In this document: in pieces, positions 45,447 through 45,645 of the stretch | How positions within the stretch are numbered: the first letter of the stretch is position 1 | How the letters are laid out: each line of letters opens with the position of its first letter | DNA from: Eledone cirrhosa | Lineage: Eukaryota | Length of the DNA: 64,000 nt | Assembly (NCBI GenBank): GCA_964016885.1 | Contig: OZ024759.1 | Span: forward strand, 26,164,001 to 26,228,000 | Direction of reading: 5' to 3' | Position numbers and translations under genes: made by a program | The notes under the pieces: model-generated | Seen by the model: the letters and a program-made list of their open reading frames with translations, nothing else | The model's database searches: none | Told to the model about the DNA's origin: nothing

Positions 45447-45450
<4 letters not shown>

Positions 45451-45645
45451 AGTAACCCAACAGTTAGTTCACCATACTGAGAACAATTGTTTCACCTTAT
45501 GCGGATCTTCAGCTCGGACTCCGCATAAGGTGAAACAATTGTTCTCGGTATGGTGAACTAACTGTTGTGTTACTACTTCTACCTAACTCGTCCCATGGAC
45601 TGAATATTCTACCACTACGGATATTACCTTCCACTGTTCTACCTC
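45447..45645. mobile_element. Fold-back element family P3 (inverted Penelope-like pseudo-LTR)
   Basis: 59-nt arms at 45447-45505 and 45520-45578 with 2 mismatches and a 14-nt loop. It starts directly at the end of a long pure (TA)n run. Confidence 0.75.
45477..45517 (-). ncRNA. Minimal type I hammerhead ribozyme-like motif
   Basis: Minus strand reads CCGAG-CUGAAGA-UCCGCAUAAGGU-GAAAC-AAUU-GUU-CUCAG. The mirror arm has CUCGG, which would give a perfect helix I. Helix III is the palindrome ACAAUUGU. Confidence 0.6.

What the first reader, a model, noticed from the sequence alone, without database searches (positions are those of the whole stretch)
45447..45645. Near-perfect 59-bp hairpin whose hinge holds a minimal hammerhead ribozyme
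Seen: arms 57/59 complementary, starting at the edge of a pure (TA)n run. The loop plus left arm read on the minus strand as helix I CCGAG/CUC(A>G)G, core CUGAAGA, a short helix II (CC/GG with a U.U base), GAAA, palindromic helix III ACAAUUGU and a GUU cleavage triplet. The plus-strand arm starts exactly after the CUGAAGA box. Known: Penelope-like elements carry minimal type I hammerheads in their pseudo-LTRs that cleave as dimers through a palindromic helix III, and they often insert with an inverted, truncated pseudo-LTR. Inference: this is a young, ORF-less Penelope-like insertion, or a non-autonomous ribozyme-bearing retroelement, whose inversion point falls inside the ribozyme.
Basis: partly seen in the sequence, partly recalled or inferred. 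Interest (0 to 1): 0.75.

Follow-up and report, generated by a model that had tools for sequence, protein, structure and literature searches.

The report
Back-to-back Penelope retrotransposon ribozyme ends
The hairpin is two short, back-to-back copies of the ribozyme-bearing end of an abundant Penelope-like jumping gene of a known group, and across many copies the two halves stop at two different fixed points and join in one narrow zone, likely because one RNA is copied from both sides of a DNA cut up to its own start.

Summary
Observation confirmed: 57 of 59 pairs, and the minus strand reads as a type I hammerhead. The unit is not a one-off. A 24-mer of the arm has 6,748 exact hits in the genome, and the same DNA is the pseudo-LTR of a 2.5-kb RT + GIY-YIG element with Hydra-clade motifs. 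The U·U at the base of helix II is Hydra-typical (14 of 25 published families). The window copy is a doubly 5'-truncated, head-to-head insertion in (TA)n.

Measured here: one arm ends at site E1 and the other at E2, about 65 nt further, in 40 of 43 pairs. Both arms break in one zone, −40 to +19 around the core (3.6-fold to 7-fold higher break rate), not clearly at the cleavage site. The arms are long or short together (p=3e-7). Best reading: twin priming on one uncleaved RNA, with run-off near its 5' end. No RNA data were available, so cleavage and the start site are untested.

Inverted truncated copies and one-sided tails are known, and this scan noted the two-end pattern before on other DNA of this genome. 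New member of a known kind.

The parts
45381..45446 (.). (TA)n target run on the left
   Evidence: nearly all copies sit in TA runs
45447..45519 (-). Arm 1: 5'-truncated pLTR copy from position -7 (C3 of the core = 0) to end site E1
45477..45517 (-). Type I hammerhead motif (helix I 5 bp with one private mismatch, CUGAAGA, U·U, 2-bp helix II, GAAA, palindromic helix III, predicted cut between 45482 and 45481)
   Evidence: same pattern in Hydra families, PMC8557442 File S2
45506..45520 (.). Loop and hinge: join of the two 5'-truncated ends with 1 nt of microhomology at 45520
   Evidence: the same hinge occurs at 9 places with <=1 mismatch
45520..45646 (+). Arm 2: 5'-truncated pLTR copy from position +7 to end site E2; lacks the CUGAAGA box
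45579..45646 (+). One-sided tail (E1 to E2, about 65 nt); in coding copies this is the start of the 5' UTR
   Evidence: read-through into the 5' UTR in L100, L119, L083, L157 and others
45586..45605 (+). Small hairpin just past E1 (8 bp in the family, weakened here by a private change)
   Evidence: -8.4 kcal/mol in three copies; only the loop base differs between subfamilies, 133 A / 49 T of 183; window copy z -1.25
45643..45656 (+). (CT)n then (TA)n on the right
   Evidence: (CT)n is as frequent as at background TA runs

Best explanation
The 199-bp unit is two 5'-truncated copies of the hammerhead-bearing pseudo-LTR of a Hydra-type Penelope-like retrotransposon, joined head to head in a TA repeat, likely made in one event by priming both ends of a cut on one uncleaved RNA. 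Shown: the identity, the (TA)n target, the E1/E2 pairing, the shared break zone and the coupling of arm lengths. Inferred: the endonuclease would cut both strands in (TA)n. One 3' end would prime on a UA at E1 and the other on a UA at E2, with strand displacement where the two cDNAs overlap. Both cDNAs would run to about the 5' end of a transcript started inside the pLTR, 40 nt or less upstream of the ribozyme core. The two identical cDNA ends would then be trimmed and joined by microhomology. Long copies would come from the same reaction on the downstream pLTR. The ribozyme is predicted to work as a dimer through helix III, but cleavage is not needed for this product, because both arms read through the cut site. 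Odds: identity 0.95, two-site priming on one RNA or one RNP 0.7, break zone = transcript 5' end 0.5.
For: Identity: L100 is pLTR-ORF-pLTR and its pLTR matches the unit at 91-92%. The ORF model (pLDDT 91.9) has telomerase RT as its best PDB matches (E 5.5e-9). Its C-terminal part aligns with the Pfam GIY-YIG stretch of P0005. Pairing: 40 of 43 simple head-to-head pairs are E1/E2 after dropping one duplicate (p=1.5e-9); in the tail-ascertained sample 43 partners end at E1, 1 at E2 and 7 elsewhere, of 51 (the two samples overlap). Break zone: among 89 E2 arms the break rate is 1.6% per nt at -40..+19, 0.44% at +20..+86 and 0.23% at -300..-41 (p 4e-7 and 1e-10). E1 and E2 arms break at the same position (medians -8 and 0, p=0.11), not at the same length (75 and 132 nt, p=1e-5; n=43). 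Coupling: of 51 pairs 40 are both short, 8 both long, 3 mixed (p=3e-7); 33/4/3 of 40 in the other sample (p=8e-4). Arms of one insertion share subfamily variants in nearly all readable pairs. Literature: an Anolis PLE protein cuts both strands, starts at two internal RNA sites that define the tail, and does not need hammerhead cleavage (PMC11167929). Drosophila Penelope starts transcription inside the pLTR, 46 nt before the intron whose end abuts helix I (PMC2377424; PMC4209133).
Against: No RNA evidence for a start site or for cleavage. The zone is broad (60 nt), not a sharp edge, and overlaps the 5' strand of an extended helix I, so structure is not excluded. 38 of 90 E2 arms had no inverted partner detected; some are later disruptions or partners too short to align, others may be single-primed. 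There is a small, non-significant bump at the cut site (5 of 89 breaks in +26..+33, against 2 and 2 in the flanking 8-nt bins). In the query-biased set 8 of 30 pairs have arms that differ at a diagnostic site, and 2 of 37 in the unbiased set, always in the same direction, which one RNA does not explain. Break positions come from BLAST ends against five natural copies and carry several nt of error. Samples cover only the first 54 Mb and 92 Mb of contig C1. The promoter reading (NRF1-like and ETS-like words at about -58 to -25) is recalled, not tested.
Confidence: 0.65

Rival explanations
1. Same element, but the hinge is set by the ribozyme: its fold, or a dimer held by helix III, stalls each reverse transcriptase independently, or self-cleavage creates the template's 5' end.
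For: The zone overlaps the 5' half of the folded domain, which extends from about -26 to +44 in three subfamilies. 5 of 89 E2 breaks lie at +26..+33. Two-RNA dimers fold through helix III in subfamilies A and B and could explain the discordant arms.
Against: Most arms read through the cut site, so cleavage cannot be the main cause. Independent stalls do not predict that both arms are long together. The fold is no more stable than shuffles. Four head-to-head joins of a sister family whose core reads CAGAAGA also lie at that motif (seen, not quantified).
Confidence: 0.2
2. The window copy is a second-generation copy: a hairpin formed once and was then spread as a unit, by re-retrotransposition or by ectopic gene conversion of the hinge between copies.
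For: This hinge, with only 1 nt of microhomology, occurs at 9 places on 7 contigs, always with the E1 arm as the longer one (p 0.004 to 0.016). Four of them share discordant arms, and two share private changes while having different ends.
Against: Most hinges differ between loci (73 matches). The window's flanks match none of the other eight. The nine fall into at least two haplotypes. Hinges with 3-nt microhomology also recur, so recurrence can be independent. This would explain the spread of one hinge, not the family's architecture.
Confidence: 0.2
3. Long head-to-head palindromes were inserted and later trimmed at the centre, or lost from the assembly, leaving short hairpins.
For: Long perfect palindromes are unstable (established knowledge, recalled). 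The stem length depends on position, as observed.
Against: Trimming one arm is enough to remove a palindrome, yet both arms are short in 40 of 51 pairs and long palindromic pairs persist. Arms without a partner also often break in the zone.
Confidence: 0.1
4. One cDNA primed at E2 folds back on itself and primes the second arm (snap-back), so only one priming event on RNA is needed.
For: Some pairs have breaks near -10 and +30 to +40, as a fold-back across helix I would give.
Against: Snap-back requires the E1 arm to be nested in the E2 arm. The E1 arm reaches further 5' in 24 of 43 pairs, including the window copy; E2 does so in 14, with 5 ties.
Confidence: 0.05

Closest known systems
Hydra clade of C-terminal EN+ Penelope-like elements (Craig et al. 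2021, PMC8557442; read: section 11, passages, supplement part 2 and searched places)
   Same: [quoted passage not shown]
   Different: A different family from Hydra-1_Obim (other hammerhead; protein collinear by eye only, not aligned by a tool). Helix II has 2 bp against 3 or more in the listed families. The tail is about 65 nt against 30-40. Thousands of copies, most reduced to under 250 bp. The strict E1/E2 pairing and the break zone are not quantified in what I read.
PAc (Poseidon, Anolis) in vitro mechanism (Frangieh et al. 2024, PMC11167929; read: parts 1-2 of 4)
   Same: Cuts AT-rich DNA on both strands, two internal RT start sites bounding the tail, predicted dimer, uncleaved RNA used as template.
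   Different: Other clade. The paper leaves later steps open and does not describe pairing of the two start sites in one insertion or where the copies break.
Minimal type I hammerheads of metazoan PLEs (Cervera and de la Pena 2014, PMC4209133; read: parts 1-2 of 4)
   Same: Core boxes, short helix I, palindromic helix III, dual motifs on opposite strands near each other.
   Different: No G10.1-C11.1 pair; helix II 2 bp against 6-8; predicted extra distal stem on helix I.
Animal non-LTR retrozymes (Li et al. 2026, 10.64898/2026.07.22.740005; read: parts 1-2 of 5 and passages)
   Same: Short, non-coding, type I hammerhead, derived from a PLE pLTR.
   Different: No head-to-tail monomer arrays among the 84 sampled insertions; the sequence is continuous with the coding element.
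LINE-1 twin priming (recalled, not read here)
   Same: Two priming events give a 5' inversion joined by microhomology.
   Different: In L1 the two segments do not overlap and the second site varies. Here both sites are fixed and the two cDNAs copy the same stretch.

Membership tests
Hydra-clade PLE | Unit is the pLTR of a single-ORF element under 3 kb, RT then C-terminal GIY-YIG | tested here: met
   (L100, L101, L119); Pfam itself gave no RT or GIY-YIG hit on P0003
Hydra-clade PLE | RWK motif and DKT in place of DKG | tested here: met
   P0003 reads RWR and DKT; RWK is met as a conservative variant
Hydra-clade PLE | CxCX5C linker; CxxC and CxH around the conserved E and N; no CCHH | tested here: met
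   linker; no Cys between the two core motifs; C-termini of L102, L103, L104
Hydra-clade PLE | Insertion in (TA)n | tested here: met
Hydra-clade PLE | Hammerhead in the pLTR | tested here: met
   pattern as in File S2
Hydra-clade PLE | RT phylogeny groups with Hydra references; no IFD or CxC domain | not tested
   No tree was built; reference sequences were seen only in the supplement
Minimal type I hammerhead of PLEs | CUGANGA and GAAA kept, N7 free | tested here: met
   of 258 copies (picked with <=2 core mismatches) 239-255 keep each fixed base; N7 is A 159 / G 95
Minimal type I hammerhead of PLEs | Palindromic helix III able to pair between two RNAs | tested here: met
   208 of 258 keep the palindrome; duplex -6.4 kcal/mol, monomer stem +2.4
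Minimal type I hammerhead of PLEs | G10.1-C11.1 pair and long helix II (2014 consensus) | tested here: not met
   U 247 and U 255 of 258, helix II 2 bp; fits the Hydra variant instead
Minimal type I hammerhead of PLEs | Self-cleavage as a dimer | not testable with these tools
   needs an in vitro assay
Rfam hammerhead families | Covariance-model hit | tested here: not met
Non-LTR retrozyme | Head-to-tail tandem monomers each with a hammerhead | tested here: not met
   none among 84 insertions; one two-unit local repeat in L069
MITE / hairpin DNA transposon | Inverted repeats at both termini and a fixed interior | tested here: not met
   the ends are asymmetric and hinges vary

The most novel reading that the evidence does not exclude
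Penelope-like elements integrate by two-ended priming on a single RNA: an RT-endonuclease dimer uses two fixed start sites, one per end of a double-strand cut, and the commonest product is run-off to the transcript's 5' end just upstream of the hammerhead. The hinges of thousands of hairpins would then be a fossil map of the element's transcription start, and would explain the inverted pLTRs and one-sided tails that have lacked a mechanism.
Probability: 0.4. Interest if true: 0.65.

Novelty: new member of a known kind. Interest (0 to 1): 0.38.

Why it matters
How Penelope-like elements form inverted repeats and one-sided tails is named as an open problem in PMC8557442 and left unresolved in PMC11167929. 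This family offers thousands of minimal products whose ends and joins can be counted, and it gives three clear predictions for the existing in vitro system: one E1 and one E2 end per event, coupled arm lengths, and breaks that follow the RNA's 5' end. The element itself, its ribozyme type and its inverted structure belong to a described clade.

Tried and rejected
1) Telomerase-like slippage adding (CT)n at the ends. E2 ends of the subfamily with a CTCT seed carry 3 or more CT units in 24 of 33 cases, against 2 of 41 for the other. But background TA runs show the same growth (57 of 279 with at least one CT have 3 or more; E1 ends 7 of 35), so a general microsatellite process suffices.
2) Cleavage as the source of the hinge: no significant peak.
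3) Snap-back as the general route.
4) Rfam: only generic miRNA-hairpin matches below threshold.
5) Pfam found no RT or GIY-YIG in P0003; a scan of the whole alignment exceeded the size limit and was not repeated.
6) Expression: no RNA holder listed; this says nothing either way, and no reads were laid.
7) A second hairpin after E2, matching the one after E1, which earlier scan notes report for the clade: five read-through copies gave differing folds and no consistent match; inconclusive.
8) Lunse et al. 2017 was not held; I saw only its title and a review's passages (PMC6765202).
9) Literature searches for a prior description of the pairing or break zone returned only the papers cited; subscription journals, Repbase entries and bioRxiv supplements were not visible.
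10) The hammerhead table was biased to one subfamily and was replaced. The E2 end used (143) included TA bases of the reference and was corrected to 132.

Full report
Check. The hairpin is as described: 57 of 59 pairs between 45447-45505 and 45520-45578, next to a (TA)n run. The minus strand carries the hammerhead boxes at the stated places, and the plus arm begins one base after the CUGAAGA box. Rfam has no hammerhead hit here and the fold energy is unremarkable. Positions below count from C3 of the core as 0.

Copy number. A DNA search gave 3,247 candidates; all 40 scored matched most of the 199 bp, the other 39 at 88-95% identity. An arm 24-mer has 6,748 exact hits and a tail 24-mer 3,704, with 0 for reversed controls. 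These are lower bounds.

Parent element. Copies that extend upstream run into a 3' UTR and an ORF. A search with one RT piece gave 30,356 candidates, 150 scored. L100 is pLTR-ORF-pLTR, and L101, L102 and L119 add inverted truncated copies. The longest frame (P0003, 656 aa from Met, ending at a premature stop) has 1,080 relatives among 7,994 candidates scored. Its model (pLDDT 91.9) matches telomerase RT best, and its C-terminus aligns with the GIY-YIG stretch of P0005. Pfam found nothing relevant in P0003 itself. The motifs fit the Hydra clade as defined in PMC8557442 section 11. No complete ORF was seen in 50 ORF-bearing loci. No tree was built.

Ribozyme. Among 258 distinct copies picked with at most two core mismatches, N7 is the only core base that differs between subfamilies; loop II and the bases 5' of helix I also differ. 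The flanking 3' sequence is equally conserved, so this is consistent with function but not proof. The U·U pair and U17 depart from the 2014 consensus but match 14 and 10 of 25 Hydra families in File S2 (counted by reading). Natural copies of three subfamilies fold into the three-way junction with an extra distal stem on helix I; helix III is unstable alone and pairs between two RNAs. The window's copy lacks the 5' strand of that distal stem, has a mismatch in helix I, and would be sequestered in the long hairpin, so it is unlikely to cleave.

Two fixed ends. Arms end at E1 (about +67) or E2 (about +132), both at a UA that joins the TA run; the stretch between them is the start of the 5' UTR. 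I analysed 97 of the first 100 core hits on contig C1 (84 insertions; three hits held in other loci were left out). Of 44 simple head-to-head pairs with both ends classed, 41 were E1/E2, 2 E1/E1 and 1 E2/E2; one is a duplicate, giving 40 of 43. The other 40 insertions were 30 singles, 7 complex and 3 unclassed. In a second sample (90 of the first 100 tail hits; seven lying in or near loci already held and the last three were left out) 43 partners ended at E1, 1 at E2 and 7 elsewhere, and 38 arms had no partner detected. The samples overlap.

Break zone. For 89 E2 arms the break rate is 1.6% per nt at -40..+19, 0.44% downstream and 0.23% upstream. E1 and E2 arms break at the same position, not the same length. 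The cut site shows 5 breaks against 2 and 2 in neighbouring bins, not significant. Arms are both short (40), both long (8) or mixed (3) in 51 pairs and mostly share subfamily variants. Joins show short overlaps or short inserts. The E1 arm reaches further 5' in 24 of 43 pairs, which rules out snap-back as the rule.

Mechanism. Shown: identity, target, pairing, zone, coupling. From the literature: double-strand cutting, two internal start sites and use of uncleaved RNA by another PLE, and an internal start within the pLTR shortly upstream of the hammerhead in Drosophila Penelope. Inferred: both ends of one cut prime on one RNA, run to about its 5' end, and are joined by microhomology. A palindromic word resembling an NRF1 site and ETS-like words lie at about -58 to -25 in all subfamilies; these names are recalled and untested.

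Against and unexplained. There are no RNA data. Arms differ at a diagnostic site in 8 of 30 query-biased pairs and 2 of 37 unbiased pairs, always in one direction. The window's hinge recurs at 9 places with the same polarity and with flanks unrelated to the window's, which may reflect copying of the hairpin as a unit or gene conversion.

Comparison and novelty. Inverted 5'-truncated copies, one-sided tails, (TA)n targeting and Hydra hammerheads are published. Seven literature searches found no count of E1/E2 pairing or of a break zone, within the limits of the library. Earlier notes of this scan report the Hydra assignment, the two-end pattern and a hairpin past the ends on other DNA of this genome; look-ups by sequence and by break-zone words returned nothing. 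I had reached the assignment and the pairing before reading them. Verdict: new member of a known kind, interest 0.38.

Noticed in passing
window 51432-51649: Head-to-head hairpin of a sister family in (TA)n, with the U·U helix II base and GAAA but a core reading CAGAAGA in place of CUGAAGA in most copies seen; its hinge also lies at that motif.
   Followed up: partly
window 50855-51030 and 29734-29889: Two TA-embedded fold-back elements of another family with one long and one short end, and a motif like the clade-wide tail hairpin of earlier notes; the first is shared with 34 fetched loci.
   Followed up: partly
window 30365-30520: A further fold-back element between microsatellites, shared with 20 fetched loci.
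   Followed up: no
window 2415-4096, 22690-22845, 24172-24362, 28416-28548, 32683-32794, 39551-39757, 48314-49371, 53248-53824, 61484-61767: Many copies of one abundant short interspersed repeat, each shared with about 57-72 fetched loci; not classified.
   Followed up: no
all fetched loci and the window: TA runs preceded by CT show a gap at two units (9 cases) and an excess at three or more (57 cases) among 2,219 background runs, suggesting CT seeds grow into TA runs genome-wide.
   Followed up: partly
L302 and L303 (G000:C22:8417844-8418500): Two hairpins 411 bp apart share the hinge and two private changes but have ends of different subfamilies, as local gene conversion would give.
   Followed up: partly
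L100 2740-2790, L032, L188: The 5' bulge of the extended helix I and loop II both differ between subfamilies, as expected if they form the tertiary contact of type I hammerheads; not tested for covariation.
   Followed up: no
window 43784-43837 and 43985-44038: 54-nt direct repeat, 93% identical, 201 nt apart.
   Followed up: no
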